Origin: the human T2T-CHM13v2.0 reference genome, Homo sapiens
Reading direction: 5' to 3' (one strand)
Length of the DNA stretch: 64,000 nucleotides
Assembly: GCF_009914755.1 (NCBI RefSeq)
Contig: NC_060933.1
The notes under the pieces were generated by a model. It saw only the letters and a program-made list of their open reading frames with translations, ran no database searches and was not told the origin of the DNA. Every line of letters starts with the position of its first letter. Within the stretch, counting starts at the first letter, position 1. The translations under genes were made by a program, and so were the position numbers. Of this stretch, positions 23,179 through 64,000 are shown piece after piece.

Positions 23179-29755
<6,577 letters not shown>

Positions 29756-30308
29756 GTTCGCTCCGCCGGCGCCGCGGGCGGGCGCGCGAAACGAAGACGC
29801 CGAGGCACGCGCGGCGTTTAAAGGGCCAGGACTCTGGCGCCCCGCGGGTTGGCCGGGGTGAGGGCGACGCTAAGGGAACCCTCAGCGCTCTCGGGACTGG
29901 GCGTGTGCCCGGCGCCCAAGTTCGAAACGCCCGCCAGAGCCGCAGAGGCCCGCTCGGGAACGTTTGCAGACCGTTCCATGCTTCCGCCTCCAAAGGCTCT
30001 TGGGTAGTGACCCGGCCGACTGCAGGGGGGCGAACGTCTGCTCGCCCCACCTTGACCGCCTAAAGGGCGGCGTGGCCGTCTGTAACACGTACTTGCCCAC
30101 CTCTCTTACGGGCGCCCATTCAAAACAACTCCAGCCCTTCCTAGAGTCAGTACAGGCGCCGCGACTTCCGGCCACTGAAAGCCCCGGAAACGACCCGACC
30201 CGGCACCAGGTGCGCGGCGGTGTTGCGGTTCTCTCTGCCCTCCCGCCTCATTGTCCGCTTCCTACTGTGACCCGAACCATAAAATTTTCCCGAACCCGAA
30301 GGGGCCTT

Positions 30309-31490
30309 GGAAACCACGTGTCTCTGATTTCGCCCACGCGAAGCGGCCGGCCCGCCGACCCCGAGATTTCCAGGGAGAGGATGGCAAAGTGGGGTGCCAG
30401 GCTGCTCGGTCCTTCTGCTGGGCTCCCCCGCCCTAGCTGAAGCCCGGAGCCTCCACCGCATAGGCGTCTCCGCGGACAGCCCCGGGATGGCCCCGCCCGG
30501 CGCCCGAGAGGGGGCGGGACTCGCAGAGTGGGCGGGGAGAGGGGCGGGGCGAGGGGGGAGCTCTGAGTCCCGGCTCTGCTGCTCCGCCGCGTCCCACTCT
30601 TCTCGCTCCGCTTTCGCCCCGCATCTTCCACCTTCCTTCCAGTCCTTGCGGCGACCGAGCCCGCAGTGTCAGTCCCCAGCGGGGACCTGAGTATGCCGGT
30701 GAAGACGAGAGCGGAAGGCGAGGACGACGGCTTCGGGGAAGCGGGTGACCCGAGGAGACTGCTGGAGCGACCTTGGCGTTTCCGGGGGTGCCTTCCCGGG
30801 AAGGGGAATCGGGATGTTGGCTTCGAAGGGACCGAAGGGCCCACCTCGACCCGCCCCGAGTGGGTTTGGAGTTGTAGGTGCTGTCTCGGATGCAGGGCGA
30901 GCACCCGCGAGCGGGTAACCAGTCCCGTGAGAGCTGCAGGTCCCCAGCCCCGTTTTACAGATAGGGAAACTGAGGCAGCTGCTGGGACACTCGCCCATAT
31001 GGGTTTTGCTCCACCCACTTCCTTCAGCCACTTTACAGACCAGGAGTTGAGGGACTGCTCGAGCTTAGAGTGTTTAGGGGTGGTTGAGGGTGACCCCCAT
31101 GTTCTGTGCTCTACTCTATCCCTATCCAGGCCTTCTCCCAGCGCCACTCTCACGCTCCTGCTTGCTAGCTCCTGCTTGCTAGCTCCTGCTCCTCCCAGCT
31201 TCATCCTCCTCCTGTTTACATTAATTGCTCCTGATCTTCCACACTCTTGATTTTCCGGATTCTAACTCCATCAAAATGTAACTTGATGTGTTCAGGCCCC
31301 GGGGACACCTAGGCACTTGAGGGGGGCGGGTCCGTGTTTGGCCTGCTGGGCTTAGCAGGAGGGTCTGGCCCGGGGCGGGGAGCGCGATGCTCTGCTGGGT
31401 CAGCATCTCCAGCCACCTGGCTTTGCTGGTGTGGCCTCGCAGCCTTGCCAAATGTGAGCAGCTTACAGAGCAACCAGTTGCACGTGCTTA
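30309..31490 (+). pseudogene. PTGES2-AS1: Diverged partial duplicate of BBLN/C9orf16 promoter + exon 1 + start of intron 1 (region annotated, from memory, as lncRNA PTGES2-AS1)
   Basis: Colinear with 61002-62028. The exon-1 equivalent 30666-30744 matches 61479-61557 at 67/79 nt, with ATG changed to GTG. The lncRNA name is recalled, not derived from the sequence. Confidence 0.8.
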
Positions 31491-31514
31491 AGCTGCCGAG
31501 GTGACACAGGGCGC

Positions 31515-32523
31515 TGTAGGGTCCAGCCCCACAGGGTCGGTAGGTCTCTCCCTGTGTGCGGCGACGAGAGAGTGTAGAAATAAAGACACAAGACAAAGAG
31601 ACGAGAAAAGGCAGCTGGGCCCGGGGGACCACTACCACCAATGCGCGGAGACCGGTAGTGGCCCCGAATGTCTGGCTGCACTGTTATTTATTGGATACAA
31701 GGCAGAAGGGGCAGGGTAAAGAATGTCAGTCACCTCCAATGATAGGTAAGGTCACGTGGGTCACGTGTCCACTGGACAGGGGGCCCTTCCCTGCCTGGCA
31801 GCGGAGGCAGAGAGGGAGAGGAGACAAAGAGAAAGACAGCTTACGCCATTATTTCTGCATATCAGGGACTATTAGTATTTTCACTAATTGACTACTGCTA
31901 TCTGGAAGGCAGAGCCAGGTGTACAGGATGGAACATGAAGGCGGACTAGGAGCGTGACCACTGAAGCACAGCATCACAGGGAGACAGGCCTCCAGATAAC
32001 TGCGGGCGAGCCTGACTGATGTCAGGCCCTCCACAAGAGGTGGAGGAGCAGAGCCTTCTCTAAACTCCCCCGGGGAAAGAGAGACCCCCACCCTCCCTTT
32101 CCCGGTCTGCTAAGTAGCAGGTGTTGTTCCTTGACACCTTTTGCTACCGCTGGACCATGATCCGCCTGGTAACGGGCGTCTTCCCAGATGCTGGCGTCAC
32201 CGCTAGACCAAGGAGCCCTCTGGTGGCCCTGTGTGGGCATAACAGAAGGCTCGCACTCTTGTCTTCTGGTCACACCTCACTATGTCCCCTCAGCTCCTAT
32301 CTCTGTATGGCCTGGTTTTTCCTAGGCTATGATTATAGAGCAAGGATTATCATAATATTGGAATAAAAAGTAATTGCTACAAACTAATGATTAATGATAG
32401 TCATATATAATCATATCTAAGATCTATATCTGGTATAACTATTCTTGTTTTATATTTTATTATACTGGAAGAGCTCGTGTCCTCTGTCTCTTGCCTCGGT
32501 GCCTGGGTGGCTTGCCGCCCACA
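31515..32523 (-). mobile_element. Solo LTR13 (ERVK class)
   Basis: Reverse complement begins TGTGGGCGGCAAGCCACCCAGG and ends ...GGACCCTACA; about 1.0 kb with TG...CA termini. Confidence 0.85.
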
Positions 32524-32676
32524 CACAAAAAAGATAAATGTTTGAGGTGATGAAGATCTTAATTTCCTTGATTTGATCATTACATGTTTCATACAGGTAT
32601 CAAAGTATCACATGTACCCCCAAAGTATGTACAACTATGATATATCATAAATAAATGAATAAATAAATAATAAAAG
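32524..32676 (+). mobile_element. L1MA-type 3' end with A-rich tail
   Basis: gataaatgtttgaggtgatg...cacatgtacccc...aataaataaat. Confidence 0.75.
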
Positions 32677-34844
32677 ACAGAAGCCTGACCATGCTATGTT
32701 CAATCCACAGCTATGCCCCTCACTGTGCACCTGATCTCCCCATCTCACGCCAGTTCCTGAGAGACAGGACAGAGAACAGGGGCAGGGCTGCCCTGCCCTA
32801 ACCACTGGTCTTCAGTTAGTTATCCTGGCAATACTTCCAAGGTGCCCTTCCCTGGTGCCCCCCACACTTGAGATAGCCCCGTCCTATCCCCCCACCCTGC
32901 AGGTGGGTCTGTGCAGAGGTGAGGTCACTGCTCCAAACCTCAATGGAGGGCACTGGGGCAGGTGTGCGCCATCCGTCACTGCACCCAAGGCCGTACACCA
33001 TGCAAGCAGTCCTTCTCCCTTTTCCACGTGGAGGCTTGTGCATCTGGGGACAGATTTCAGAATTTAGGATACCCTAGTCCCCTCTTCAGGGCTTTGTCAC
33101 CCACCTTTCATGTCCATAAAGCAGCAGAGCTTCTGTGGCCATGTCTCAGTACGTTTGATCCAGCATCAGCAAAGAAAGCCCAGTCTTTTGAAAGCCAGTG
33201 GTTGCAGTAGGCACATCCTCTCCAAGCCTATGCTCCCCAAGGTAGAGGTTAGCTATTTCTTGCCAAGTATGAATGCTGATTTCCAATGGCCATTAGGGAA
33301 TAGAACCCCCCACCCCAGGGAAGCAAAGCCACCCTCTTCCTCCTCCCCCTCACTCAGCTCCCATTATTGGCCTGCCTAAGGAGCACCTCTGGGCTCTCCT
33401 AAAAGAAGAAAAGCCACTGTGTCCTTGCAAGTCGCACCTTTGTCCCTTAGTTCCACGAAAAGCTGCTACATGCCTACAGTGTGCCAAGCACTGGGGCTCT
33501 CCCTGTGGCACCTCGTTACACGCTAGAAGGCAGGTGCTGTTCAGAAATTTCTGATGCTGTTGGTGTCCTGCACTCAAGATGCTTCCCAAAGCCAGATTCC
33601 ACTCACCGGCAGCCTCGCTGGGAGCACAGAGGGTTTCCTGATGCTCACACTCCACAGAGAAACAGGTGGAGACGTGTCCATCAGGGCGAGAAGGTGGCCA
33701 TTGGGAATAGGAAGGACATTCCCCCTGAGCCATGGCACAAGGGGAGGCAGCCATGGGGAGAGGACAGAGCAGGGAGAGCAAGAAGGAACCTGGGAAGGAA
33801 GGTCTCTTGGGTCCCTGGAAGCTCCAGGCTGGGCCACAGGGATCAAGGGGCACTCACTGGCCAGAGCTGAGAAACATCTGCTCCAGTCTCTGGATGCCTG
33901 CCTGTCCACCGCCAGCTGCTGGTGAGATGTTCTTGTTTGAGGGTAGATTTTATCTGCATAAGCTCCCCAGTGGTGAGGGTCCCAGGAAATGAGTGCTACA
34001 CAGACATTCATAAGGCAAAAAGCCTATCCCCACCCCCACCCCACGTTATAGATGCTCAGAGGAGACTGGTGTGACCAAGTTACCAGGTCCCAGGTGGGGC
34101 GGGACTGGCCCTAACAACCCCGGCATTCCAATATCCTGTCCAGTGTGTGCTCTGAGGTTGGAAGACCCCAGAGCACGGTCTGCTATCTTCTCAGCAGCTG
34201 CAGAGGTTATTGGAATCGTAACATGTCTCCAGGATGGGAAAGGAGGAAGCAGCAGTCGCCTACATCTCCCGGAAACCCTGCCAGGGACCAGATGTCGCAC
34301 AGGCTTCCCGGCACGCTTTGTGGAATCATCCAATCTGAAGTCAGGCCTCCCCAGGGTGCAAATCCTGGCTTCTGCCTTGGAGAATTATTAACTCTGGGTT
34401 TTTAAAGGCAGCCGCTTACATTCAGCTCTCAAAAGCATCAAAGGCATGAAGCACATAGGGTGCAGACTGCTATCATGCCAGGTCACATGATAGACGAGAA
34501 AGCAATCCCTGAGGTCAGAGTTGCTCCCACCAGGCCCACAAAAGAGGTTAATAAAGCATAAGGAAGCCTCTCAGAGAGGCCAGGTGGTGGAAGTTTTGCT
34601 GAACCTAGGGTGTCCAGGAAATGGATCATTTGGGGTTGTTTATGGATTGATGTCGCTCTGGTGAGTGGGTAGTAAGTAAATCCACCTCATATGGCTTTTT
34701 GTCAACCTTGAAGCTCACTAGTATAAACAGACCAGGCCAGATGTCCAGGTCCCCGGGAATAGTCAGGGGCATGACCCTTCTGCCCCTGGGCTGGCTGCCC
34801 TATTCGCTTCCAGCACCTCTTGATAACCCCCTTCCTTTCCCTTG

Positions 34845-35026
34845 ACCAATAGTTCCCAAACTGGGGTGCCTAGACCAGCAGCATCAGCATCGCCTGGGAG
34901 CTTGTCAGAATCGTGCATTCCCAGGTCCTCCCTACAACCACTGAATGCAAGTCCCTGGGGCACCTATACCTGCGTCTAACAAGCTCCCCAGCCATCCTGG
35001 TGCATCTGAATGTTTGAGAACCACTG
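34845..35026. mobile_element. MER5A-like hAT DNA transposon
   Basis: ccagcagcatcagcatcgcctgggagcttgtcagaat...tttgagaaccactg. Confidence 0.75.
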
Positions 35027-35207
35027 ACCTCTAGGCTAACTCCTGACTGGGCTCCCTGCTCCCACGGGTTTCTCCCTCCAAGTCATGTTTTCTACACACG
35101 CAGAATTGCCATTTCAAATCCCCTACTGCCATGTCACACTCTCCCTTATGTCTGGAGACCCCTCCATTGCCTTTTGAATAAATTCTCACCATTTTCAAGG
35201 CTCTTCA

Positions 35208-37985
35208 CTTTTTAAAAATTGTGGTAAAATACACATAACATGAAATTTACCATTTCATTTATTCTCAATATAGAGGTCAGTGGCATAAGCACACTCACAT
35301 TGTGGTACAACCATAACTCCTTTCCATCTCCAGAACTCTTTTTATCTTGTAAAACTGAAACTCTGTCCCCTTTACACACTAACTCCCCATTTCCCTTTTC
35401 CCCAGCCCCTAGCAACCACCATCCTGAGCTCTGTTTCTGTGAATTTGACTACTGAAGAGATCTTATGTAAGTGGAATCACAAAAAGCTATTCGTCCTTTT
35501 GTGACTGGCGTATTTCACTTAACAGAATACCTTTAAGGTTCACCTACGTTGTAGCATGTCAGAATTTCCTTCCTTTCTAAACCTGAATAATATTTCGTAA
35601 AATGTATATGCCACCTTCTGTTCATTCATTTATCAGTGGGCACTTGGGTAACTTTTTAAAATTGTGGTAAAATATACATAACACTAAATTCATCATCTTA
35701 CCCATTCTCAATATAGAGTTCATTGGCCTCAGTACATTCACATTGTTGTGCAACCATAACTACCTTCCATCTCCAGAATTCTTTTTATGTTGTAAAACTG
35801 AAACTCTGTCCCCATTACACACTAACTCCCCATTTCCACCACCTAACTGGTGGAAATAGCCTTTTGGCTATTTATTGTAAAAAAAAAAAATGCTGCTGTG
35901 AACTTAGGTGTACAAATATCTCTTCTCAACGCCCTGCTTTCAATTCTCTCATGGAATTCTCATCCAGGAGTGAAACTGCTGGATCACATGCTAATTTTAT
36001 TTTTAATTGTTGAGGAACTACCATACCGTTTTCCAAAAGGAGTGCCATAGAAACTATCCTTGCATTCCGGGAACAAATCCTACCTGGTCATGGTCTATGA
36101 TCATTTTAATGTGCTGTTGAATTGTTTGCTAGTATTTTGTTGAGGATTTTCGCAACAATATTCATTAGGGACATCGGTCTGCAGTTTTCTTTTGTTGTAG
36201 TGTCTTTGTCTGGCATGGGTATCAGGGTAATTCTGGCCTCATAGAATGAGTTTTAAAGTGGTCCTTCCTCTTCAGTGTCTTGGAAAAGTTTGAGAAGGAT
36301 TAGTATTATATTTTCTTTAAATATTTGGTAGAATTCACCAGTAAAACCATTAGGTCCTAGGCTTTTCTTTCTTGGGAGATTTTTGATTGCTACTCCAATC
36401 TCCTTTTGATTACTGATTTAATCTTCTTATTGGTCTGTTCAAATTTTGTATTTCTTCATAATTCAGTCTTGGTAGGTTGTATGTTTCTAGAAATTTATCC
36501 ATTTCTTCTATGTTATTCAATTCATTGGCATGTCATTGTTTATAATGTTCACTTATCATACTTTGCATTTATGTGGTATCAGTTGTAATGTCCCCTCTTT
36601 CATTTCTGATTTTATTTGAGACTTCTATCATAGTTAGTCTAGCTAAAGGTGTTTCAATTTTGTTTATCTTTTCAAAAACCCAACTCTCAGTTTCTTTAAT
36701 CTTTTGTATTATTTTCTAGTCTTTATTCCATTTATTTCTGCTCTGATCTTTGTTTTTGTCTTTCTTCCGCTAACCTTGGACCTAGTTTGTTCTTTTTCTA
36801 GTTCCTTCGGAGGTAAAGTCAAGTTGTTTATTTCTGACCTTTCTTTATTCTTAATGTAGACATTTATCAATATAAACTTTCCTCTTAGAAATGGTTTCAC
36901 TGCATCCCATAAACTTTGATGTGTGATATTTCCATTTTTATTTGTTTCCAGATATTTTTTGAATTCCCTTTTGATTTCTTCTTTGACCCACTGATTATTC
37001 AGGAGCTTCTTGCTTCATTTCCACTTTTGTGAATTTTTCAGTTTCCTCCTTTGATTGATTTCTAGTTTCATAACATTGTGGCTGGAAAAGATCCTTGATG
37101 TGATATCAATCTTCTTGAATTTGTTAAGACTAGTTTTATGGCCTAACATATGATATGTCCTGGAAAACATTCCCTGTGAGCCCTTGAGAAGAATGCCCCA
37201 TCTGCTGCTGTTGGATGCTATGTTCTGTATATGACTGTTAGGTCCATTTAGTGGAAAGTATAGTTCAAGCCCAGTGTTTCCTCTTGATTTTCTGTCTGGA
37301 CGGTCAGTCCATTATTGAGAGTGGGGTACTGAAGTTCCCTACTGCTGTTGTACTCCTGTCAATTTTTCCCTTCAGGGTTGCTAACATTCACTTTATATAT
37401 TTAGGTGCTCAATGGTGGGCATACATTTTTATATGCTGTATATCTGGGAATGTTTGAATTTCTCCCTCATTTTTGCATCTGTTGAAAGCCTTCGACTTTC
37501 TGCTTTATTTCTTCCCCTGATCCTTGTCCTGGTACCCCCTGCAGCTCTGACATATGGCAGCAGTCAGTACTGCCCCCAGGGTCTCCATCCTGATATCCCA
37601 AGCAGGCTGCCCTTCGCATCAACACTCCAAGATGCGTGGGACAGAAACCAGTTCCACAGGCAGCCCGCAGACAAGCCAGAACCCTGTAAACATGTTGCGG
37701 TCTTTCCCTTGTGTCCCCAGGGAGGTACCAGGAGTAGGGTGGCCTCCTCCTGACCGTGCTGGGAAGGAGGTGGGGCAGAGGTGAGCCAAATGCCACAACA
37801 TTTCCTGCTGCTTTGAGTGTGGTTTTGTCCTCATTGGGAGTTGGCGTGATTGCTGCAGATCCTTAACCAGTTCCTGGAGTTCCCACTAGGCGACCTGGAG
37901 CCATGCATTGCCCCTCGCCTGGTGCTTCCACAGAGGAGCAAGGGTCTACAGCACCCTAGGCCACTGTCCTGCTGACATCACTCCT
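35208..37985 (-). mobile_element. Old L1M (L1MB-like), internally deleted: 3' end, ORF2 remnant and probable 5' end
   Basis: L1MB 3' UTR motifs at 35210-36050; ORF2-like translation on the minus strand (LRGKFILINVYIKNKERSEINNL...KIRAEINGIK); 5'-end-like segment at 37500-37985. Confidence 0.8.
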
Positions 37986-38339
37986 GCACAGCCTTTCCCT
38001 TTCACTAAATCACATCAATACTGCCTTTCCTCTGATGAGGCCTCCCAACCTCCATCTGGCCTCTAGGGCCCTTGTGCACAGGTCTTTTTTATAACATGTG
38101 CCCCATTCTGTTCCAGCAGAATTGCTCTCCTTCTCCAAGCATGAGAACCCCTGGGGACTTGCTGGAGCCAGAGTCCCAGGATCATCTCCCTGTGAATCCA
38201 GGCAGAACATCTGGGCTAGAACCCAGAAATCCACGTCTCTAGCAAGTGCCGCTGGTGATTCTTAACAAGGAGCCTGTGGAACAATAGAGTCTTACTGAGA
38301 AATGTCATCTCCCAAACTCAGCGAAATTCTACGAGATAA

Positions 38340-38590
38340 AAGGGTGATTGCCAACATCTTTGCCCACTTACTGCATGCAGACACTGCTCTGCACACTAGA
38401 TGCATATTAGCTCAGTTAATCTTTCAGTAACCTGTGCAATCAGTCCTACTATCATCCCATTTTACAGATGAGAAAGCTGAGGCATAAAATGCTTAAGCAA
38501 TTTCCCCAGGTGACCTAGCTGGTAAGTAGAGGATTTCAGCTTGAGCCCAGGCCTTTATCTCCTTGCTCATAGTCTTCATAGCTCTGCTAT
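38340..38590. mobile_element. MIR SINE
   Basis: atcccattttacagatgagaaagctgaggc core. Confidence 0.7.
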
Positions 38591-40439
38591 ACGTGTTTAA
38601 TTATTCAAGGCTGTCCCCTCACAGATGTCATGATATTGTAGCATGCCAACAGGCCGCAGCCACTTGCACACCATAAAGGCCTCATCTCTGGCTATGCCCA
38701 CAGCAAAAAAAAAAAAAAAAAAAGTAAAAATTAAATAATGACTACTCCCACTAGGATATCCCTTCATGTAGACCAAGGGCCCTTTTTAAGCTCCTCACTC
38801 ATCCTGCCCAGGCAGCATTTGGTACTGTTGACTACAGGCTTCTGGAAGAGCTCTTTTGCCTGTGTTCTGATGAGGTATTCTCCAGCTCCTCTCACTGAGC
38901 TGTTTTTGTGGGTGCTCTCCTCTGCCCTTCCATGAAGTGCTGGTGTGCATGGGGGCTTGTATCTAAACCCTCTTCTCCTGGACAACCTCACCATCCACAT
39001 ACCAGCAACTCCCACCCCTGGGTGTTCTTCCCAGACCTGTCTTCTGCATCCCAGACGCAGACCACTGCTCGCTGCTTCTCTGTGGACAGGACTTTAACCT
39101 AACCAGCTCAGCATGTACGACGCTAAGCCGAGGGCCCACCTCCCAGGTATGCCTTCTTTCCAGCTCCCTGCCCATTACCCAGGCAGCTGTCCAACCAGAC
39201 ATGTTTGGGTTCTTACGGCTCTGAGGTGTGGTCTTGGACACATCGATCCTCATAAATGTTCCGTATGTATTGTAATCCACCAGGCTGAGCTCACTTTTCC
39301 ACTAAATCATGCCTAACTGACAGTGGCTGACCACAATCAGAGTTCATTTCGTCTTCACACAACATGACGAGGTGGCTGCTTCTCGTGACTGGGCAGTGAC
39401 TCAACAAAGCACCAGTGGTCCCAGCCCTACCTCTTACAGCCCTTCCCTCTACCGTGCCCTGGATCTTCTGGGTCACTTCTCATCACGCTCCAAAGCTCTG
39501 CTCAGACCTTCCCTCATCCAGAGACTGCTGCATGGTCCCTGCATCAAAATGGTGAGCTGTGGGACGGGACCACAGGGCCCCTTATGCAGAGCTGGTAGGA
39601 AGTTGAAGGAGCGCCTGGCTACACACCCCTCTCAGGATGCTGGTGTGTGGTAGAGGCTCAGAAATGGGCCTCTCCTGTTTCTCTGCACCACCGGTACCAC
39701 TGCTCCCCATTCACAGCCCTTTCCACACAGGGACAGCCCATGTGTTCCCTGCTCTCCCAAACACTGTGGGGCTGTGAGGACAGGGACTTTGTCTCCTGCC
39801 TCTGTCTCCCTGCGGCCCAGCACAGAGCCGCTCTCATGGTGGACATCAATAAATATGCACCCAAGGATTAACTGTAGAGAAAGGGATGACAATAAGAGAA
39901 GCAGTTCTAGGTAAGTGGTTCCCGAGCTTTAGTGTGCATCACAATGCCCTGGGCTGTTGGCTTCAATGCAGATTTCTGACTCTGTAGGTCCAGGTGGGGC
40001 CAGAGGCTACCACTGCTGGCCCTGCCACCCTTCCCTGGGAGCCCCTGTGTGATAGATGCTGAAATGGAGAGTATAAGATGTTGAGAAACCTTCCCCAAAC
40101 CGCTGAGGCTGACCCTTCAGGTGCCAAAAGTCACTTTCTGCCAGTCCACCTCCAACTTCAGCCACAGCTGCTGTGGACACTCTGGACAGCTCAGAGCCTC
40201 CTGGTGCAACATGGCCCCGCCCAAGGTCAGTGCACCTGTCAGCATCCTGTCCCTAGGGAACTCTGATGCCAGGGAAGCCTTCCAGATCTTACAAGCACAG
40301 CCCAGAGGGCAGAGGGATAACAGCCAGTGGAGCAGCAGAAAAACCTCCATTCCCACCCCTCAGGAGAGCGAGACCACCAGGCATGGGGCATTGGAAAGAA
40401 TCTTCCAGGGGCTGCCATGGTCCCTCCTTGATAATATGC

Positions 40440-41630
40440 CTCCCCCCACTGCGATGGGGGTCCCAAGAGACAGCGGGGGAAGAGGGGCTTGCTCTCAGTC
40501 CCCGCCTCTCGGGGGGTGACTCCCCCGCCTGTGATGGGGGTCCCAAGAGCCAGGGGGAGAAGAGGGGCTGGCTCTCAGTCCCCGCCTAGCAGGAGGTGAC
40601 TGCCCCCCCTGCGATGGGGGTCTTAAGAGCCAGTGGGGGAAGAGGGGCTGGCTCTCAGGCACCGCCTCGCGGGGGTGCCTCCCCCCCTGCGACCGGGGTC
40701 CCAAGTGCCAGGGGGGGAAGAGGGGCTGGCTGTCAGTCCCCGCCTCGCGGGGGGTGCATCACCCCCTTCGATGGGGGTCTTAAGAGCCAGGAGGGTAAGA
40801 GGAGCTGGCTCTCAGTCCCTGCGTCGCGGTGGGTGCCTCCCCCCCCTGCGATGGGAGTCCTAAGAGCCAGGCGGGTAAGAGGGGCTGGCTCTCAGTCCCT
40901 GCGTCGCGGTGGGTGCCTCCCCACCCTGCGATGGGGGTCCTAAGGGCCAGGGGGGGAAGAGGCGGAGAGGGTGATAATAATTCCAGCATCGCAGGCTGTT
41001 CACCCAGCATGGGAAATTGTCCTTGATATCCTGAAAGGGAGAGGATGCTCTTATTCCCCATAATAGACAGATATGACTCCCCATAATAGAGCACGATGTG
41101 TACACCCACCCTGTGATATTCTTCCTAATATTCAGAGGCCGAGAGGTTGGTATTACTCCCAATATCGCAGGAAGTATACACCCCCGTGTGAGATGGTCCT
41201 TAATAATATTCCAAGGCGGAGGGGGTGATATGACTACACAGATGGCAGAAAGTGGACACCCCCCAGGGATATTGTTCCCACGATGCTGGAGGGAAGAAGA
41301 TGATATGACTGTCAATATGACAGAAGGTGGACACGCCCCCACTCATATTGTTTCTAATTGCAACGTGGGAGAGGAGGATATGACACGCGATATCGCAGGG
41401 AGTAGAAACACCCCTGTGATACTGTTCTTAATATTCAGGGAGGAAGAGGATGATATTACTCCCAATACAGACGGGTGTACACCCTCTGTACACCGAGGGT
41501 GTACACCCGTCTGTGAAACAGTTCATAATCTCCAGAGGGAGAGATTATCTTACTCACAATATGGTAAACAGGCTGTGAGTCCACCGCGGATCCTAAGAGC
41601 CAGCGGGGGAAGAGGGGCTGGCTCTCAGTC
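40440..41630. repeat. SATR1/SATR2-like satellite: about 7 tandem ~79-bp GC-rich units (40440-40960), AT-mixed units (40960-41575) and one more GC unit
   Basis: Unit starts at ~40442, 40522, 40603, 40681, 40762, 40839 and 40919; motif gatattactcccaatatcgcagga...gtacaccc. Confidence 0.8.
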
Positions 41631-41901
41631 ACCACAGCATGGGGGGCCTTTATGTTCAGGTTTTGCCCAAGAGTCAGCTTATTTACTTCTTGTACTAGCA
41701 GGGCAGTTCTGCCAAGGCCCTCAAACAGGGGGGCCATCCTTTAGAAACCCTGTCTAGTTGTTTAGAGACTTAGGCCACCGGCCTCAGCCAGGGCCCCACA
41801 GTTTGGGTTAAAAGTCCAGCTGCCATCTTTTCTCTCTCTGACGCATACAATGGAAAAGGCTTTGTCAGATCGGGTAGCCCCAGGGCTGGGGCTGCCAGAA
41901 G
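41628..41901 (-). mobile_element. Gammaretrovirus-like ERV1 (HERV-E-like) pol fragment, RT-RNaseH connection region
   Basis: Minus strand translates to [81 protein letters not shown], with a stop and a frameshift. Confidence 0.85.
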
Positions 41902-42019
41902 TCAGATGTTTTTTTTCTTCTTGAATCTCTTTTGTAAGTTATAGTTTTCTGGGAAATTTCCCATTTCCTTATTTATTGCATTCTTTCGTTATCTTTTTAA
42001 TAGCTCTAGAACTCTATAG

Positions 42020-44725
<2,706 letters not shown>

Positions 44726-47700
44726 CTTTGTGGTAATTTGCTGTAGTAATTTGATGATTTGGGAAATTCTCAGCTTCTCTAGATTGCAGAAGATGCTAAC
44801 AATAGGAAATTCACTGTTAAGAAAGTGAACTCTTGAGAGAAAGCCAAGGGTGTGGCCTGCGGATGTGGGGAAGAGGTGGCCAAGCCAGGGGCCCCGGAGG
44901 TATGGGAAGGAAGGGACCTGAATCAAGGGAACCCAGCAGTGTGGGAGGAGGTAGTTCAGGACAGGGGACCCAAGAGTGTCAGGAAGAGGTGGGACCCAGT
45001 GGTGTGGGGAGGTGGCCCAGGACAGGGGGACCTCGGATTGTAGGCAGAACCTGGAGAACCACGAGACGCTTCAGTTGGGGCAGATCCAGGCTGAGCTCCC
45101 AGGGAGGGGCGCTTGGGACTGCAGTGACCTGGGAGAGGCCAGTGCCCACCCAAGGCCTGAGGGAGTCTGGGCCCAGGGAGAGGCACCCAGACCTGTGCCC
45201 TGCAGCCTTGGGCCTGCCCATCATGGCAATGCAGAGGGCTCCCCCTCCTGACAGGTGATTCTGAGAGTCACAGGACAGGGCAGGGAGTGGTCCTCCCTCC
45301 GGCCCAAGGTCTGGGCCACCAAACTTTGTACCCAGAAACTCACACTTCCCCCTCAGACCTCTGACCTGGGCCCTCTGAGAATCGGGCTGAGAAGGACAGT
45401 GGCCAGGTGAAGGCCAAGGTCTCTGGGTGTTCTCGGCATCTCCTGCTGCTCTGCCGCTGGCACTGCCCTCCCTTCCCCTCACCCAACTCTGCACTGGTCC
45501 AAGTTGTCCCCTCCTTTTGAAGGTGGACACGCTTTCCCTTTGGAGCGAGATCTGGTCCTCGCTGCCTGTCACAGCCTTGTTCATGTCCCCCTCCCCCAAA
45601 GAGGGAGGCTCAGCCATGGAACCCACCCCCTCAGCTGAAATAAACACGTGCTGCCAAGAAGGAGTGGGGGCTGGGTCTGCGATGTCCATCCACCACTGGG
45701 ATGAAGTGGAGGGCATAGAGGCTGCAGCCTGTTCCATCCTCAGCCCCCGCAGGGCACCAGAGGGGCTCCAGGCAGGAGGCTGTGTGTTGTGGTTCTGAAG
45801 CCAGGGATGTCTTCAGGGACATTTGGTCTCATTTGACCCTTCCGGAACCTATTACCCTGCCCCCTGGGCTGGGCACGCTCCTGGACTGTCCTGGGCTCTC
45901 GGGAGAACCAGCTTTCAGGAGAGCCAGACCGGTCCTCTCACCCAGCCACCTCTGATGGTGCCAGCGGAGGCCCAGCCAAGGACCTGGAGAGCAGGGAGCA
46001 CGGGAGCATGTGGGGTAACGCAGGGGTGGCCGCAGTGGAGATGCCCCTTTCCTGGGGTGCTGGGGGCTGCAGTCCGGGCAGGAGGGGTGCAGAGCTGGGA
46101 GGAGCATTGGTTTTGAGCAGCACCAGGACCATGTGGGACAGAGGCCTATGACAGAGGGACTGCGGCCCAGCTCCATGGGAGCCTGGCATCCACCACTGCC
46201 TGCCGCTGCCTGTGTCCACCCTAGACCCTGCTCAGAGCCTTGACGTCCACTCCGCTGCCACCTATGATCATTGTGGGCCCTCTTGCCCGCATAGGAGTCC
46301 AGGCTCTGGAGTAAAAGGCAGAGCACCCATCTAAGCAGCATGCCTGGGCCAGGCACCAAGGGATGGAACCAGCAAGGGCCCTGGGCCTAGACCTCAAGCA
46401 GCAGGGCCCGCTTCCCCCTGTCTGGTGGACCCCAGGGGTTCACCAGAGGGAGGAATCCAGTGGGTGTACTTGGGGGAGGGTTGGGAGGGGATTTTCACAG
46501 GCGGGCAGGGTCCCTGTCAGGTAGAAGGGGCAGGAGGACCTCAAGGCCCCTTGGCGAGCCTTGGCATGAGAGAGGATGGGGGTTGGAAAACTGTTTCTGG
46601 AAACAGGAGACTCAGCCCAAGACCCTGGCAGGGCAAGCTCCTCACACTAAACAGCCCCTCCCGTTCCTGGGTGTTTGAGAGTCGGGTGCCCAGCCCGGAC
46701 CTGCCGTGACCAAGGAGAGCTGATCTGCAGACACCAAGACTTCCTGCATCTGTGACTGGGCCTCCTGGGGGCATCTTGACTGTAGACTCCTTCCAGGTGT
46801 GGTACCTGGCTCCTAGAAGCCTAGCCAGTCACCTCCTGCCCAGCCTTCAAACACGTCAGAGGGTTAACCATTCATGGCCACGCTGAACACTACTCACAAG
46901 ATCCGGAAACCAGAATGGGGAGTCAGACTGGATTCCTGAGATGTAAGGACCGCCAGGAAGCATCTTGCTGCCTTCATGCATGGATGAGACCTGGGCCTCT
47001 CCATGGGAGGACAGGCTGCTGCAGTCTCCAGGGAGCACCCACTCTTGGGCGTGGAGAGTGGGGACAGCTGCCTGCCAGAGACTGCGAGGGGAGGTCGGGA
47101 GCAGCCGGAGTACTTCTGGTCTCTGGCCACGGAAAACCCAGGCAGGGACCTGTCTTTAAGCTCCTGCTGTTGCTAAGCCGACCTGCACAGCAGGACTTGG
47201 GAGCCCAGCCCAGCTCCTCTCAGGAGGGGCTTGGCCCCATTGCTTCTGTGTGGCTCGTTGAGGGCTCACTAGAGGCACCTGCAGCTCCTTGAGAGAAAGC
47301 AGGCCCAGTCCAGGGGCCACGGTGGAAACCATAGGAGGGGCCGAGGGGAGGCAGGTGGGTGCCTGTCATGCCATGCACAGTGCCACACGTGTCGTGGAGA
47401 TTGTCCCAAGAGCCCCGGGGTCCAGGGACTCCCCCAAGCGCTGAGCAGTGTGAACACTTGTGTACCCTCATTGGCTAGGGCCCAATGAATGGGGCCCAGT
47501 GGAAAGGGGGTGGGTGAGGAATGGGGCCCCAGTGTCCTGTTGACCCTGGAGCCCTTGGAGTCGGTCAAGTCTGAATGGGAGGTCTACACCACAGTCCTTA
47601 CCCAACCTTCCTAGTGCTGAGTCCTGAAGCTTGTGTGGTGGGACTATGTAGAGCTGACCCCCTCCCTGCAGCCCTGCTAGACTCTGAAGAGAGCCAAGGC

Positions 47701-48139
47701 CAGTGGGTAGGAGACAGGTCTGGAGCTGGTGCAGAGAGAGGAATGAGCCCTGCATGGGTTTGATCAGAAACTCAGCCTTGTGTAGGGACACCCTGGGGCC
47801 CGGTGCTGTCCATGCATGACCTCACAGAAGCGCAGAGCTGCCCTCTCTACAGAGGAGCGCCTGATTTGTGTGGGAGCTAGGCAGAGATCTGCATGCATGC
47901 GGAGGAGCCAGGCTTCAAGCCAGCCTGGGGGACCCCCAAGCGGGACTATCTCCCCTTCTGCACCTGGCTCTGGTGTCTTCCCACTGTGGACCCAGTGCCC
48001 TGCTCACCCACCACATTCATACCCTGGAGTCCTGGGTCCTCAGAGATCCATGACACTGCCTCACCCCCAACTTCAAATTCTCTGGGGCTCCACCCGCTGG
48101 TCTCAGCTACGTGAAGCAGTCACCGTAGACTAGAGGGTA

Positions 48140-49432
<1,293 letters not shown>

Positions 49433-50365
49433 TGAGGTCCCCGTTAGTCCCATTGAAAGCTCTAAAACCAGCGAACCCTCAGTCCAGCCTCAGGTCAGGC
49501 ATCCAGGACGGCCTCAGCCCTCATGGGTGAGCCATCTCTGCGGACACTGCACAGGGCCTACGATCCATCGCTGCCTCCCGAGGATGCCAGCCAGGCCCCC
49601 GTTGAGATAACTGCTTCCCTGCTGGACAAGGCTGGGACCAGCCATCTCGGTGACAGTTCCAGAACCCCTGGCCTGGGCTGCTGGGTTCAATGGAAAAAGG
49701 CTGTGACTAGAGTCAGGGGGATGGTCTCAGTGACCTCAAGGATAAGGCCAGATCCTTGCACTGTCAGTGACCCAAAGCAACAGGTGTCCAGAGCAGCAGT
49801 GTGGCGCCTTCACGCCCCCACACATCAGCCCAACTCACCCAGGACAGGGACTGTAGCCTCAGCACTCAACCCATGTGCCCTGTGTGGGGTCTCTTCCCAC
49901 TGCACTCACAGGAGAGGAAGGGTCCCTCAGGGGTCCACTGGGGTCCCCTCCTGCAAATGGGGCAAGGAGAGGGGCAAGGGGCTGTCTCAAGGCCCCTGGA
50001 GCACATGCAGGTCCTGGACTGGGGCTCCTGGGAGGGCCATGATTCTGGGCTCCATGAGTTCAGAGCAGACGCCTTGTTTTTCCTTGTCCACTGTCAGCCA
50101 CCCCACCCTTCCCTGACCCTTAAAAGAACCAGGAAACAGCACATGATCTGTTGGAAGGAGGCATTCATTCTTTCCTTTCTGTGGGTGTGGGGAGGGGACC
50201 ACAGGGCACATACCCCACCCTGGGATCCAGCTGAGCAGGGGGGTCAGAGATGACAGCTCTTCCGGCTCACAGGCCACCGGCCCACATACAGGGCAATCAG
50301 AAGAAAGAAACAGCACAAGGAAGGCACAGAGGGAGTCGTTGTCCCTGCCAGAGGTGCAGCACTCC

Positions 50366-50519
50366 GGGAATGTCCCTCACTCTCCCCGTCCCTCTGTCTT
50401 GCCCAATCCTGACCAGGTGCAGAAATCTTGCCAAGTGTTTCCGCAGGAGTTGCTGGCAATTGCCTCACATTCCTGGCCTTGGCAAAGAATGAATCAACCC
50501 ACCCTAGATCCCATAAATA
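50366..50519 (+). promoter_or_regulatory. LCN2 proximal promoter: NF-kB site, C/EBP sites, TATA-like box
   Basis: GGGAATGTCC 50366-50375, TTGCCCAA 50399-50406, ATAAATA 50513-50519; fits the known NF-kB/IkB-zeta and C/EBP induction of LCN2. Confidence 0.85.
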
Positions 50520-57409: not shown

Positions 57410-60989
<3,580 letters not shown>

Positions 60990-61000
<11 letters not shown>

Positions 61001-61950
61001 AGGAAACCCCGTTTTCGATTTCGCCAACGCGGAGGGGCCGAAGCAGCAGATGGGCTTGGACGGTCTCCCGCCGTTCCTCCCGGACCTCCCTACTCCTGGG
61101 CTTTTCCAGGGGCAGCCCCGTGGTGGCCCCGCCCAGCGCCCGGGAGAGGGGCGAGGCCGGGGGCGGAATGGGCGGAGTTCGACTGTGAGGGAGGTGGAGG
61201 CGGGAGTCCGGTGGTGGGGGTGGAGTCTGGAGGTAGGGCGGGGCCAGAACAGCGGCGGGGGCGGAGTTCCGGCTGGGGGCGGGGCGGGGCGGAGCGGGAG
61301 CTGCGGGATTCCGGCTTCAGGGGCGGGGCACCGGCCTCTGGGCGGAGATCTGCTGCCGCGTTCTACCCTTCCGGCCCGTGTTCTATCCGCCGCCTCCACC
61401 TTCCATCCGGCGCCGGCTTTCGGCGCGACGGTCGCCGCGTTCCATCGTCGCGCGGCCCTTCGGGCGCCCGAGCCCGCAATGTCGGGCCCCAACGGAGACC
61501 TGGGGATGCCGGTGGAGGCGGGAGCGGAAGGCGAGGAGGACGGCTTCGGGGAAGCAGGTGACCCGAGGGGGCTGCTGGAGCAACCTTGCATTTTCAGGGC
61601 TGCCCTCCCGGGAAGGGGAATCGAGATGGGGTCTCGGAAGGGAACAAAGAGCCCACCCATTCCGCCCCGAGCGGGTCCGGAGTTGTAGGTGCTGTCTCGG
61701 ATGCAGGGCGAGCACCCGCGAGCCGGTTCCCAGCCCCGTGAGACCTGCAGGTCACCAGTCCCGTTTTACAGATGGGGAAACTAAGGCAGCTTCGGGGACA
61801 CTCGCCCTTGTGGGCCTTGCTCCACCACTTCCTTCAGTCCTGGGGGAGACCGAGGCACCTGAGGGAGGCAGGGTTGAGCTTAGCGGAGGGGCCGGGCCGG
61901 GACGTGGAGTTGGGGACGCGGGGGCGTCGCTCTGCCGATTCAGCATCCCC
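60990..61950 (+). promoter_or_regulatory. CpG island promoter of BBLN
   Basis: CpG-rich, with multiple GC boxes and ETS (TTCCGG) motifs. Confidence 0.85.
61479..61557 (+). CDS. BBLN: Bublin coiled-coil protein (C9orf16), coding exon 1 (MSGPNGDLGMPVEAGAEGEEDGFGEA); exon 2 lies beyond the window
   Basis: GCAATGT start context, recognised N-terminus, CAG/GTGACC donor at 61558. Confidence 0.9.
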
Positions 61951-62721
61951 AGCCACCCGGCTTTGCTGGTGTAGCCTCACAGCCTTGCCAAATGTCAGCA
62001 GCTTACAGAGCAGCCTTTTGCGTGCTTACGAGTGCAGGGGTGGGGTGTGAAGAGAACCATCGGCTCCCTTCTCACCTTCTTCAGCCTCAGTTTCCCCCTC
62101 TATAAAATAGGAATAACGATTAGTGTCTGCTGCACTGGGATGTGTCAGAATTAAATGCAAAAAAAAAAAAAGGAAAATCCTTAGCAGGTTCTAGCATGCA
62201 AGAGTTCAGTAAATGGTTATCGTCATTATTATCTTTGGTATAGTAAAGATTGGCATGTTAACATACACTGAGGATTTAGTAAATGTGGTGTAAGTATGGT
62301 GCATGCTCTTTGTTTTGTTTGGCGTAACAGCTTTATTGAGCTATACAACTTACCCATTTAAACTGTACAGTTCAGTAGGCTTTTGTGTATTCCCAGGGTT
62401 GTACATCCATCACAATAGTTTCAGGTAGCTCTGCATTGGGCAATGCTGTTGGGAGCATCAGGAAGAGCTTCCCAGGAGGTCACATTAAGTGGATGTTGGC
62501 AGACAGGACTTAGAACAGTGGGGAGGAGGGTGGTGTCCCAGGCAGAAGCAAAGGCTTGGAACTGGGAAGTACCCTTGACACAGATAAAGCCTGGCCTGGA
62601 GGGGTGTGGGGCACCTGCCTCCCCAATTCCTCCTCCTAGCCTGTATCCCAGGACACAGAGTTCGAAATATTGATAATAATGACCATCCACTAAGTACTTG
62701 CTGTGGCCAGATCCTGTCTGA

Positions 62722-63021
<300 letters not shown>

Positions 63022-64000
63022 ACTGTCTGAACTCTTGATATGTTTGAATCCTCACAACCTTTTTTATTTTCCCTTTTTTCCAGAAAGGTACAACTTGCTG
63101 GGGTAAAGCAGAGCTGAAATTCAAACCCAAGTGACCCTGACCCCCAAGTCCAATCCTGAGTTTCGGCTGTTACCAACCTGGAGGACCCTGGGCAGGTTCC
63201 TTCCTTCTGAGGCCTCGGTTTCCCTAGCTATATACCATGAGGGGGTTGGACTTTAAGATGCAGCCGATTTCCCAGGACGCTGTCGTCTGTGAGGGTGGCT
63301 GGCTCTAGGCAACGGGTGCCCTTTCCCAGAACACAGGCACATATGCACCCATAACCCAGATACGCTCCTCCAGCTCCTCCACCGGCTGCTTCCCCCTTGG
63401 TCTCAAGCTGGCAGCTGAGTGTATGTGAGTCATGGGCTGGCTCAGAACTGGGTCCCGCAGTGGGCACAGGCCCAGACCTTGAGTCCTCAGGGACACTGTG
63501 TTGCTGAGCAGGGCAGCTCTGGAGTGGCCGTGGAGGGGAGGGAGTGATGGTTTCTAGTGGAGACCAGGGAAGGCTTCTTGGAGGAGGCATTTTGAGCTGG
63601 TCCTTGAAGGGCTGTTGTGGTTGAGGCATTCTAGGTTGCAGGGATAGTTGAGCAATGGCGGAGAGGCTGGAAAGTCAGAGGCTTCATTCATTCACTCACT
63701 CAGTCATTCAACAAATGCTTATCGCAAAACTGTGAGGGCACCAGGGAGCCAGCAGCGAACACAGGACCGTTCATCTTTCATGGGGAAACATAACAGCACT
63801 CAGATAAGCACAGCAGTCAATCCTGGAGAGAAGGTCGTGGAGGGCTGAGGAGGGCTAGGGGCTCAGCATAGAGGCCTGATCCAGTCTGGGGCATTGGGTG
63901 GGCTCCCGGTGGTGACATCCATACTGAGACTTGAAGGATGAGTGGGACTCATCCAGGAGGAGAGAAGGGAAGGAAGATGGGAGGACCCAGCACCTTCCAG

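What the first reader, a model, noticed from the sequence alone, without database searches (positions are those of the whole stretch)
30309..31490. The far half of the PTGES2 CpG island is a duplicated BBLN promoter, exon 1 and intron start from 31 kb away
Seen: 30309-31490 aligns in the same orientation with 61002-62028, from ggaaacc..gatttcgcc through the GC boxes, exon 1 (12 differences in 79 nt, about 85% identity) and intronic blocks such as ttgtaggtgctgtctcggatgcagggcgagcacccgcgagc and agccttgccaaatgt.agcagcttacagagca. The copy has GTG for ATG and a weakened donor (CGG/GT vs CAG/GT). It retains intron sequence, so this is a DNA-level duplication rather than a retrocopy. CpGs are retained, suggesting it stayed unmethylated. 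Inference: a borrowed housekeeping promoter now sits head-to-head with PTGES2, drives the antisense RNA and possibly upstream PTGES2 starts (candidate minus-strand donor AG/GTGGGC at 30100). The two copies flank LCN2 as direct repeats.
Basis: partly seen in the sequence, partly recalled or inferred. Interest (0 to 1): 0.8.

Follow-up and report, generated by a model that had tools for sequence, protein, structure and literature searches.

The report
BBLN promoter copy beside PTGES2
A 1.2-kb copy of the start of the BBLN gene (promoter, first exon, start of the intron) sits head-to-head with PTGES2 and is where the non-coding RNA PTGES2-DT and an alternative PTGES2 first exon begin; it is a tidy but ordinary case of a gene fragment turned into a non-coding RNA gene.

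Summary
Window 30309-31514 is colinear, on the same strand, with BBLN 61002-62052. The core is 85.4% identical (E 6e-123). In the whole T2T genome the core has only these two copies.

Homology also covers about 265 bp upstream of the start site (0 of 300 shuffles reach the observed score). The copy lies 30.7 kb from its parent. BBLN's two true retrocopies are spliced and on other chromosomes. A local DNA-level partial duplication is therefore the best reading.

The annotated PTGES2-DT start (30577) falls within about 3-12 nt of the position homologous to the BBLN start. A PTGES2 alternative first exon starts 89 bp away on the other strand, inside the copy.

New here:
- The copy carries a 263-bp insert with relatives on chr10.
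- It is cut off at 31514 by an LTR-like repeat that has no target-site duplication.
- A 7.9-kb, 96.4%-identical duplication from chr9:102.02 Mb follows and supplies the RNA's poly(A) site.

Rough age is 30-65 Myr, untested across species. I found no paper describing this origin. This is a new member of a known kind, of moderate interest.

The parts
30309..30573 (+). Copy A: duplicated BBLN promoter upstream of the start site. TATA-less, with 5 GGGCGG boxes against 9 in BBLN.
   Evidence: Anchor blocks. Chained local score 48.5, reached by 0 of 300 shuffles; natural GC-rich controls reach at most 18.6. Box counts. Between the anchors the alignment is poor (46-66%, many gaps).
30574..30665 (+). 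Copy A: homologue of the BBLN 5'UTR. It lacks about 45 nt that BBLN has (61412-61456) and that both retrocopies also have. The PTGES2-DT RefSeq 5' end is at 30577.
   Evidence: Score 25.2 against a shuffle mean of 10.2; 0 of 300 shuffles reach it. Alignments. The shared 7-mer GCCGCGT lies 9 nt from the PTGES2-DT start and 19 nt from the BBLN start (read).
30666..30744 (+). Copy A: dead homologue of the BBLN coding exon 1. GTG replaces ATG; 12 of 79 positions differ; 8 codons carry replacement changes and 3 carry silent changes.
30745..31027 (+). Copy A: homologue of the first 280 nt of BBLN intron 1. The donor reads CGG|GT. Contains the 45-nt identical block 30868-30912 and a MIR-like core at about 30944-31027.
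   Evidence: Intron identity 242 of 280 (86.4%). Longest-run permutation test: 563 of 20000. The MIR name is recalled; support is only the 33-nt chr16 match.
31028..31290 (+). Segment present only in copy A (includes a 14-nt x 2.6 tandem repeat). Homologous to two inverted stretches on chr10. The shared motif TTCAG lies at both junctions.
   Evidence: Gap in the BBLN row. chr10 matches of 81% over 267 nt and 78% over 189 nt. Junction view. Tandem repeat.
31291..31514 (+). Copy A: second stretch of BBLN-intron homology. About 71% identical overall, with a well-kept sub-block 31391-31472.
31515..32523 (.). LTR-like interspersed repeat (1009 bp, TG...CA) that ends the BBLN homology. It has no target-site duplication here.
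   Evidence: At least 39 near-full-length copies elsewhere at 89-95% identity. 3 of 3 reference copies examined have flanking duplications of 6, 6 and 4 bp; the window copy has none (GGGCGC against CACAAA). Family name not determined.
32520..40440 (+). 7.9-kb duplicated segment, 96.4% identical to chr9:102019050-102026953 (minus strand). Its first ~160 nt are the tail of an L1-like repeat whose AATAAA signals (32650-32674) precede the PTGES2-DT 3' end at 32682.
   Evidence: Edges and CACA microhomology. The window copy is the derived one: 38 of 38 other genomic copies of the repeat run on across the point where the window copy is cut off. The L1 name is recalled.
30577..32682 (+). PTGES2-DT (NR_024425.1), unspliced. 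A mosaic of BBLN 5'UTR/exon 1/intron homologue, the chr10-like insert, the LTR-like repeat and the L1-like tail.
   Evidence: Coordinates from the hub's RefSeq table; composition from the parts above.
30296..30488 (-). Alternative PTGES2 first exon. It starts inside copy A, 89 bp from the PTGES2-DT start on the other strand. The donor GT is at 30295-30294.
   Evidence: Hub's RefSeq table; donor read.
61002..62052 (+). Parent segment B: BBLN promoter, exon 1 (61336-61557) and the first ~495 nt of intron 1.
   Evidence: Exon 2 (window 64523-65004) matches Pfam UPF0184 at E 4.8e-30.
60724..61002 (+). Old Alu-like insertion in B, with a 15-nt target-site duplication (60706-60720 and 61003-61017). 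It sits exactly at the 5' limit of the A/B homology.
   Evidence: flanks printed. 70% match to other ~290-bp repeats of the window. No homology to the left of it: z = 0.3, 105 of 300 shuffles reach the observed score.

Best explanation
Copy A (30309-31514) is an unprocessed, partial duplicate of the 5' end of BBLN. It holds about 265 bp of promoter, the 5'UTR, coding exon 1 and the first ~0.5 kb of intron 1. A local DNA-level event placed it 30.7 kb upstream of its parent, in the same orientation and about 540 bp from the PTGES2 start site.

The coding capacity is dead: the start codon is lost, exon 2 is absent and exon 1 has drifted like the intron. The CpG-island core promoter survived. It fires at the position homologous to the BBLN start. 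With a weakened donor and no exon 2 to splice to, the transcript runs on unspliced through the intron homologue, a later 263-bp insert and an LTR-like repeat. It ends at the poly(A) signal of an L1-like tail that arrived with a much younger 7.9-kb duplication. That transcript is PTGES2-DT.

Like most CpG-island promoters, the copy also fires upstream-antisense. In its new setting that transcript runs towards PTGES2 and is spliced from the donor at 30296, giving an alternative PTGES2 first exon.

Shown: the homology, its limits, the disabling changes, CpG retention, the two-copy status and the later rearrangements. Taken from the annotation: the start sites and exons. Inferred: promoter activity as the cause, the local DNA mechanism, and an age of roughly 30-65 Myr.
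For: - Colinear homology: E 6e-123 in the core, 85.4% identity, K2P 0.155.
- Significant homology upstream of the start site: 0 of 300 shuffles reach the observed score, and 52 natural GC-rich controls reach at most 18.6 against 48.5.
- Only two copies of the core and of exon 1 in the genome.
- No exon 2 homologue in 31400-50500.
- BBLN's true retrocopies are spliced at the exon 1/2 junction and lie on chr22 and chr20.
- Exon identity (84.8%) is about the same as intron identity (86.4%); 8 replacement against 3 silent codon changes; ATG to GTG.
- 22 of 29 CpGs kept; CpG o/e 0.72-0.98 across 30200-30999.
- 5 GC boxes and no TATA.
- The PTGES2-DT 5' end is 9 nt, and the BBLN 5' end 19 nt, upstream of the same conserved 7-mer.
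- The alternative PTGES2 exon 30296-30488 starts inside the copy (hub table; donor checked).
- AATAAA signals at 32650-32674 precede the RNA end at 32682.
Against: - I examined no cross-species, CAGE, chromatin or expression data. Promoter activity rests on the RefSeq models alone.
- Between its anchors the promoter alignment is patchy (46-66%).
- The 5' limit in BBLN coincides to the base with an Alu-like insertion site. The model does not explain this.
- The 3' limit is destroyed by the LTR-like repeat and the 7.9-kb duplication. The original extent is therefore unknown, and a poly(A) tail or target-site duplication, if there ever was one, could not be seen.
- Gene conversion between the copies could distort the age estimate.
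- Polarising the 12 exon differences with the retrocopies is indecisive: 6 derived in the copy, 3 in BBLN, 2 conflicting, 1 uninformative.
Confidence: 0.85

Rival explanations
1. RNA-mediated copy: a retrocopy of an unspliced BBLN transcript that started about 330 nt upstream of the RefSeq start and ended within intron 1, or an L1-type 3' transduction of flanking DNA.
For: The 5' limit of homology in BBLN (61003) is exactly the nick site of an Alu-like retrotransposition. BBLN intron 1 has an ATTAAA followed by an A-run at about 62147-62172, roughly 100 nt beyond the last detectable homology. The 3' end of the copy, where a poly(A) tail would be, is lost.
Against: The copy includes at least 265 bp upstream of the annotated start site. 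It lies 30.7 kb from its parent in the same orientation, which is very unlikely for a random retro-insertion in a 3.1-Gb genome. The two real BBLN retrocopies are spliced and on other chromosomes. No A-tail or flanking duplication is visible at 30309. A TTTT run directly after the Alu-like element (61013-61016) would stop a polymerase III read-through; that rule is recalled.
Confidence: 0.07
2. Remnant of a larger duplication: the event originally copied much more of BBLN, perhaps the whole gene, and the rest was later deleted in the rearrangements at the LTR-like repeat.
For: The repeat that ends the homology has no target-site duplication, whereas 3 of 3 reference copies do. Its right flank is a foreign 7.9-kb duplication joined through CACA microhomology. 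The present 3' limit is therefore secondary.
Against: No BBLN intron or exon 2 homology is found anywhere in 31400-50500 or to the right of the repeat (z = 1.0). In the genome, exon 2 has no further copy on chr9. This is a sub-case of the best explanation, not an alternative to it.
Confidence: 0.25
3. The copy is a passive passenger. PTGES2-DT and the upstream PTGES2 exons are ordinary divergent transcription of the PTGES2 CpG island and would exist without the BBLN-derived sequence.
For: PTGES2's own island (29400-30300) is CpG-rich. One alternative first exon (30101-30247) starts outside the copy (hub table).
Against: The PTGES2-DT start is 810 bp from the main PTGES2 start, yet it lies within about 3-12 nt of the position homologous to the BBLN start, behind the duplicated GC boxes. 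A second minus-strand start lies 89 bp from it, the usual spacing of one divergent core promoter (hub table).
Confidence: 0.1
4. Chance GC-rich similarity, or two members of an interspersed repeat family.
For: Both segments are GC-rich, carry GC boxes and contain a MIR-like motif.
Against: E 6e-123; shuffles and natural GC-rich controls fall far below the observed score. Only two copies in 3.1 Gb.
Confidence: 0.01

Closest known systems
Unprocessed (duplicated) partial pseudogenes that are transcribed as lncRNAs
   Same: A DNA-level copy keeps the promoter, first exon and intron of a coding gene, loses its reading frame, and is annotated as a non-coding RNA. Hezroni et al. [quoted passage not shown]
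   Different: Only the first ~1.2 kb of the gene is present. The RNA body is mostly later insertions: the chr10-like segment, the LTR-like repeat and the L1-like tail.
Promoter-carrying partial gene duplications that create new non-coding RNAs or alternative promoters (preprint 10.64898/2025.12.03.692127)
   Same: The passages read describe partial duplications inserted away from their source whose promoters stay active and give non-coding RNAs or alternative promoters.
   Different: That work concerns young, high-identity segmental duplications. This copy is old (85% identity) and short, below the usual thresholds for segmental duplication (at least 1 kb at 90% or more; recalled). PTGES2, BBLN, C9orf16 and LCN2 have 0 occurrences in that text.
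Bidirectional CpG-island promoters / head-to-head gene pairs
   Same: TATA-less, GC-box-rich island with divergent start sites 89 bp apart inside the copy and 810 bp from the main PTGES2 start.
   Different: Here half of the island is imported from another gene. The arrangement was made by duplication rather than being ancestral.
Processed pseudogenes of BBLN on chr22 and chr20
   Same: They derive from the same parent gene and are also decayed: 81% and 77.6% identity to the mRNA.
   Different: They join exon 1 directly to exon 2, lack promoter and intron, and lie on other chromosomes. Copy A is the opposite in each respect.

Membership tests
Unprocessed partial duplicate (pseudogene fragment) of BBLN | Colinear homology that includes non-transcribed upstream DNA and intron | tested here: met
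   The upstream part is reached by 0 of 300 shuffles; intron identity is 86.4%.
Unprocessed partial duplicate (pseudogene fragment) of BBLN | Disabled coding capacity | tested here: met
   ATG to GTG; 8 replacement changes in 26 codons. No exon 2 nearby. The 185-aa read-through ORF has 0 Pfam families.
Unprocessed partial duplicate (pseudogene fragment) of BBLN | Parent is a real, complete gene of a known family | tested here: met
   Exon 2 peptide matches Pfam PF03670 UPF0184 at E 4.8e-30, profile positions 28-83 of 83. The spliced frame gives 83 aa without a stop.
Processed pseudogene / retrocopy | Introns removed | tested here: not met
   About 0.5 kb of intron 1 is retained.
Processed pseudogene / retrocopy | Starts at or after the transcription start site | tested here: not met
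   Homology reaches about 265 bp (in A) and 334 bp (in B) upstream of the start site.
Processed pseudogene / retrocopy | Poly(A) tail and target-site duplication | not testable with these tools
   The 3' end of the copy is replaced by the LTR-like repeat and the 7.9-kb duplication.
Interspersed repeat | Many dispersed copies | tested here: not met
   Two copies of the core and of exon 1 in 3.1 Gb. The upstream part matches only itself at the sensitivity of that search.
Bidirectional CpG-island promoter | CpG-island composition, GC boxes, no TATA | tested here: met
   GC 0.63-0.77 and CpG o/e 0.72-0.98 over 30200-30999. 5 GGGCGG and 0 TATAAA.
Bidirectional CpG-island promoter | Divergent start sites less than 1 kb apart | tested here: met
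   30577(+) and 30488(-) in the hub's RefSeq table. This is annotation, not data that I examined.
Bidirectional CpG-island promoter | Measured promoter activity and open chromatin | not testable with these tools
   No CAGE, ATAC or ChIP data are on hand.
Segmental duplication in the usual catalogue sense (at least 1 kb at 90% identity or more; recalled definition) | At least 90% identity | tested here: not met
   85.4% in the best block and less elsewhere. The neighbouring 7.9-kb segment at 96.4% does meet it.

The most novel reading that the evidence does not exclude
The imported BBLN promoter has been taken into use as a primate-lineage regulatory module. It couples an upstream PTGES2 isoform and PTGES2-DT to BBLN-type housekeeping control. 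The 45-nt block kept identical in both copies (30868-30912 / 61680-61724; 4 CpGs; 563 of 20000 permutations give a run this long) would then be a downstream promoter element held by selection in both places, not a chance run or a conversion tract. The copy itself may have arisen in one multi-template replication error that also stitched in the chr10-like 263 bp through TTCAG microhomology.
Probability: 0.15. Interest if true: 0.55.

Novelty: new member of a known kind. Interest (0 to 1): 0.35.

Why it matters
It gives PTGES2-DT (formerly PTGES2-AS1) an origin. In the papers I found, this RNA appears only in gene lists, including cancer expression signatures. It is a dead 5' fragment of BBLN whose promoter still works, extended by later insertions.

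Three practical points follow:
- Sequence-based probes, guides or reads for BBLN exon 1 and its promoter can cross-match the PTGES2 island at about 85% identity.
- Co-expression of PTGES2-DT, upstream PTGES2 isoforms and BBLN may reflect shared promoter ancestry rather than function of the RNA.
- The locus is a compact natural case of promoter duplication creating a bidirectional pair. It can be dated and tested across primates.

It does not open a long-standing question.

Tried and rejected
- A single global MAFFT alignment misplaced the upstream part. The first block collapsed because end gaps were free. Both were replaced by block-wise alignments and a chained local score with controls.
- Search for more of BBLN near the copy. 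No hit to intron remainder or exon 2 in 31400-50500: of 43 hits, 24 fell in the Alu at 62713-63025, 17 of the other 19 lay at 65737-65999 on repeat-like stretches, one (E 0.071) is at chance level, and one weak hit, 62346-62413 / 35694-35760 at 70%, looks like a shared old repeat.
- 5' extension to the left of the Alu: z = 0.3. 3' extension to the right of the LTR: z = 1.0.
- Rfam scan of 30000-32800: 4 matches, all far below the gathering scores; best E 0.028.
- Pfam on the 185-aa ORF: 0 families.
- Polarising the 12 exon-1 differences with the two retrocopies: 6 derived in A, 3 in B, 2 conflicting, 1 uninformative. This is too few to order the events.
- The LTR's missing target-site duplication was not found at 32524 or at the far edge of the 7.9-kb segment at 40441.
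- Literature. 'PTGES2-AS1' with 'C9orf16': 1 paper, a gene list. 'PTGES2-DT' / 'PTGES2-AS1' / 'LOC389791': 12 papers by listing; in PMC6859451, whose passages I read, the term occurs only in lists. 'C9orf16' with 'PTGES2': 2 papers, one occurrence of each term. None concerns the origin. Supplements were not opened.
- No other mammalian genome is held, so presence or absence across species could not be tested.

Full report
**1. The observation**

The two stretches were read and compared with blastn. Four colinear plus-strand blocks link 30309-31490 to 61002-62028:

| Copy A | BBLN (B) | Identity | E-value |
|---|---|---|---|
| 30309-30349 | 61002-61040 | 83% of 41 | 0.004 |
| 30463-30516 | 61099-61153 | 82% of 55 | 5e-8 |
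| 30644-31027 | 61457-61837 | 85.4% of 384 | 5e-122 |
| 31291-31490 | 61833-62028 | 72% of 213 | 8e-31 |

When 29800-33000 was searched against the whole window, these were its only non-self hits. Block-wise alignment gives 328 of 381 identical in the core (K2P 0.155). It also shows weak homology running on to about 31514 / 62052.

Exon 1 coding sequence differs at 12 of 79 positions. ATG is GTG, and the exon ends CGG|GT instead of CAG|GT.

**2. More than chance, and not a repeat**

The core E-value settles the exon and intron part. The promoter part is GC-box-rich, so it was tested separately.

- A chained local alignment of 30250-30573 against 60995-61335 scores 48.5. Dinucleotide shuffles give a mean of 16.0 (sd 2.4, maximum 23.2), and 0 of 300 reach the observed score.
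- The best of 52 natural GC-rich tiles of the window (both strands) scores 18.6.
- The 5'UTR part scores 25.2 against a shuffle mean of 10.2; 0 of 300 reach it.

In the whole T2T genome the core finds only itself and BBLN, plus a 33-nt match on chr16 over a MIR-like motif. BBLN exon 1 finds only itself and copy A. The upstream part finds only itself at that search's sensitivity.

**3. What was copied and what was not**

The rest of BBLN was fetched. Exon 2 lies at window 64523-65004. The spliced frame gives 83 aa, and the exon 2 peptide matches Pfam UPF0184 at E 4.8e-30.

Nothing between 31400 and 50500 resembles the rest of intron 1 or exon 2.

Exon 2 does have two relatives elsewhere, on chr22 (81% identity to the mRNA) and chr20 (77.6%). 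Both run straight from exon 1 into exon 2, so they are processed pseudogenes. They show what an RNA-mediated copy of BBLN looks like. Copy A is the opposite in every respect: it has promoter and intron, it lacks exon 2, and it lies 30.7 kb from its parent on the same strand.

**4. State of the copy**

- Exon identity (84.8%) is no higher than intron identity (86.4%). 8 of the 11 changed codons are replacements. The exon has therefore drifted.
- The 5'UTR of the copy lacks about 45 nt that BBLN and both retrocopies have. This is probably a deletion in the copy.
- CpGs are largely kept: 22 of 29 BBLN CpGs are CpG in the copy, and 22 of 32 the other way round. CpG sites are 78.7% identical against 87.9% for the rest. 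Methylated CpGs would have decayed far more at this divergence (established knowledge), so both copies have probably stayed unmethylated in the germline.
- GC is at least 0.63 and CpG o/e at least 0.70 from 29400 to 30999. The copy forms the outer ~40% of the island.
- The copy has 5 GC boxes against 9 in BBLN, and neither has a TATA box.

**5. Limits and later history**

*5' side.* Homology stops at 30309 / 61003. In BBLN that point is the insertion site of an old Alu-like element (60724-61002) with a 15-nt target-site duplication. Nothing to the left of the element is homologous (z = 0.3). This coincidence is unexplained.

*Inside the copy.* 263 bp (31028-31290) have no counterpart in BBLN. 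They match two inverted stretches on chr10 at 81% and 78%. The motif TTCAG is shared at both junctions. This points to an insertion into the copy, not a deletion in BBLN.

*3' side.* Homology ends at an LTR-like repeat:
- It spans 31515-32523, has TG...CA ends, and has at least 39 other near-full-length copies at 89-95% identity.
- Three of three reference copies carry flanking duplications of 6, 6 and 4 bp. This copy has none.
- Its right flank is the start of a 7.9-kb segment (32520-40440) that is 96.4% identical to chr9:102019050-102026953. The two are joined through CACA microhomology.
- The window copy is the derived one. 38 of 38 other genomic copies of the L1-like repeat at that edge continue across the point where the window copy is cut off.

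The region has therefore been rearranged at least three times since the duplication. The original 3' extent of the copy is unknown.

**6. How it most likely works**

The RefSeq table supplied with the finding puts the PTGES2-DT 5' end at 30577 and the BBLN 5' end at 61336. Both lie just upstream of the same conserved 7-mer, by 9 and 19 nt. Depending on where a 10-nt indel is placed, the two starts are 3-12 nt apart in homologous coordinates. The lncRNA therefore starts at the paralogous BBLN start site.

The donor has lost its -2 A and there is no exon 2. The RNA is unspliced, and it ends 8-32 nt after AATAAA signals at 32650-32674 in the L1-like tail.

On the other strand, a PTGES2 alternative first exon (30296-30488) starts 89 bp from the PTGES2-DT start, inside the copy, and has a GT donor.

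This is the usual two-way firing of a CpG-island promoter, with the upstream-antisense arm now captured by PTGES2 splice sites. Promoter activity itself is inferred from the annotation. I examined no expression or chromatin data.

**7. Mechanism and age**

Proximity, same orientation, upstream DNA and intron together favour a local DNA-level event, such as template switching or ectopic repair (inference). The chr10-like insert with junction microhomology would fit a multi-template event but could equally be later.

K2P of 0.155 (0.13 at non-CpG sites), with recalled primate-lineage rates of about 1.2-2.2e-9 per site per year, gives roughly 30-65 Myr. The 7.9-kb segment (3.6% divergence) would be about 8-15 Myr old, so the present 3' end of PTGES2-DT would be much younger than its promoter. 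Gene conversion could bias these figures. The 45-nt identical run (563 of 20000 permutations) may be a conversion tract, a constrained element or chance.

**8. Comparison with what is known, and novelty**

The kind is known. Duplicated pseudogene fragments are transcribed as lncRNAs (PMC5577775, passages). Promoter-bearing partial duplications can give non-coding RNAs or alternative promoters (preprint 10.64898/2025.12.03.692127, passages; it does not mention these genes).

The searches found PTGES2-AS1/DT only in what appear to be gene lists or expression signatures. For most papers this is judged from the search listing; passages of one, PMC6859451, were read. Nothing concerned its origin.

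At 85% identity over 1.2 kb the pair falls below the usual thresholds for segmental duplication (recalled), which may be why it is not catalogued. The direct repeats around LCN2 share at most 45 identical bases, so they are poor substrates for recombination.

**Verdict:** a real feature, correctly read by the first stage. It is a new member of a known kind, of moderate interest.

Noticed in passing
window 32520-40440: A 7.9-kb segment is 96.4% identical to chr9:102019050-102026953 on the opposite strand. Its left edge abuts the LTR-like repeat through CACA microhomology. Its right edge abuts a ~60-bp-unit tandem array (about 40441-40960). The window copy is the derived one.
   Followed up: partly
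window 31515-32523: The LTR-like repeat (1009 bp) has no target-site duplication, although 3 of 3 other copies examined have one. This is a sign of a rearrangement at its edge. The family name was not determined.
   Followed up: partly
window 31028-31290; L015 3089-3339 and 2033-2204: The 263-bp segment found only in the copy has two relatives on chr10, arranged as an inverted pair about 950 bp apart (89% identical to each other over 169 nt). What this element is remains unknown.
   Followed up: partly
window 30693-31250 (+): A 185-aa ORF starts at the equivalent of BBLN Met10 and reads through the dead donor into the intron homologue and the chr10-like insert. It has no Pfam match. In BBLN the same read-through stops after about 50 codons because two 1-nt indels shift the frame. 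It is probably fortuitous in GC-rich DNA.
   Followed up: partly
L006 (chr22) and L007 (chr20); L008 (chrX): Two processed pseudogenes of BBLN (81% and 77.6% identity to the mRNA), plus a 54-nt fragment of its 3'UTR on chrX.
   Followed up: partly
window 60653-60703: A 22-nt unit containing CCGGAAGC is repeated 2.3 times just upstream of the Alu-like element at the BBLN promoter edge. It lies outside the duplicated part.
   Followed up: no
window 30868-30912 and 61680-61724: A 45-nt stretch of BBLN intron 1 with 4 CpGs is identical in both copies (563 of 20000 permutations give a run this long). It could be a constrained element, a conversion tract or chance.
   Followed up: partly
window 40441-41200: About nine tandem copies of a ~60-bp GC-rich unit, followed by a second repetitive stretch. 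Not examined.
   Followed up: no
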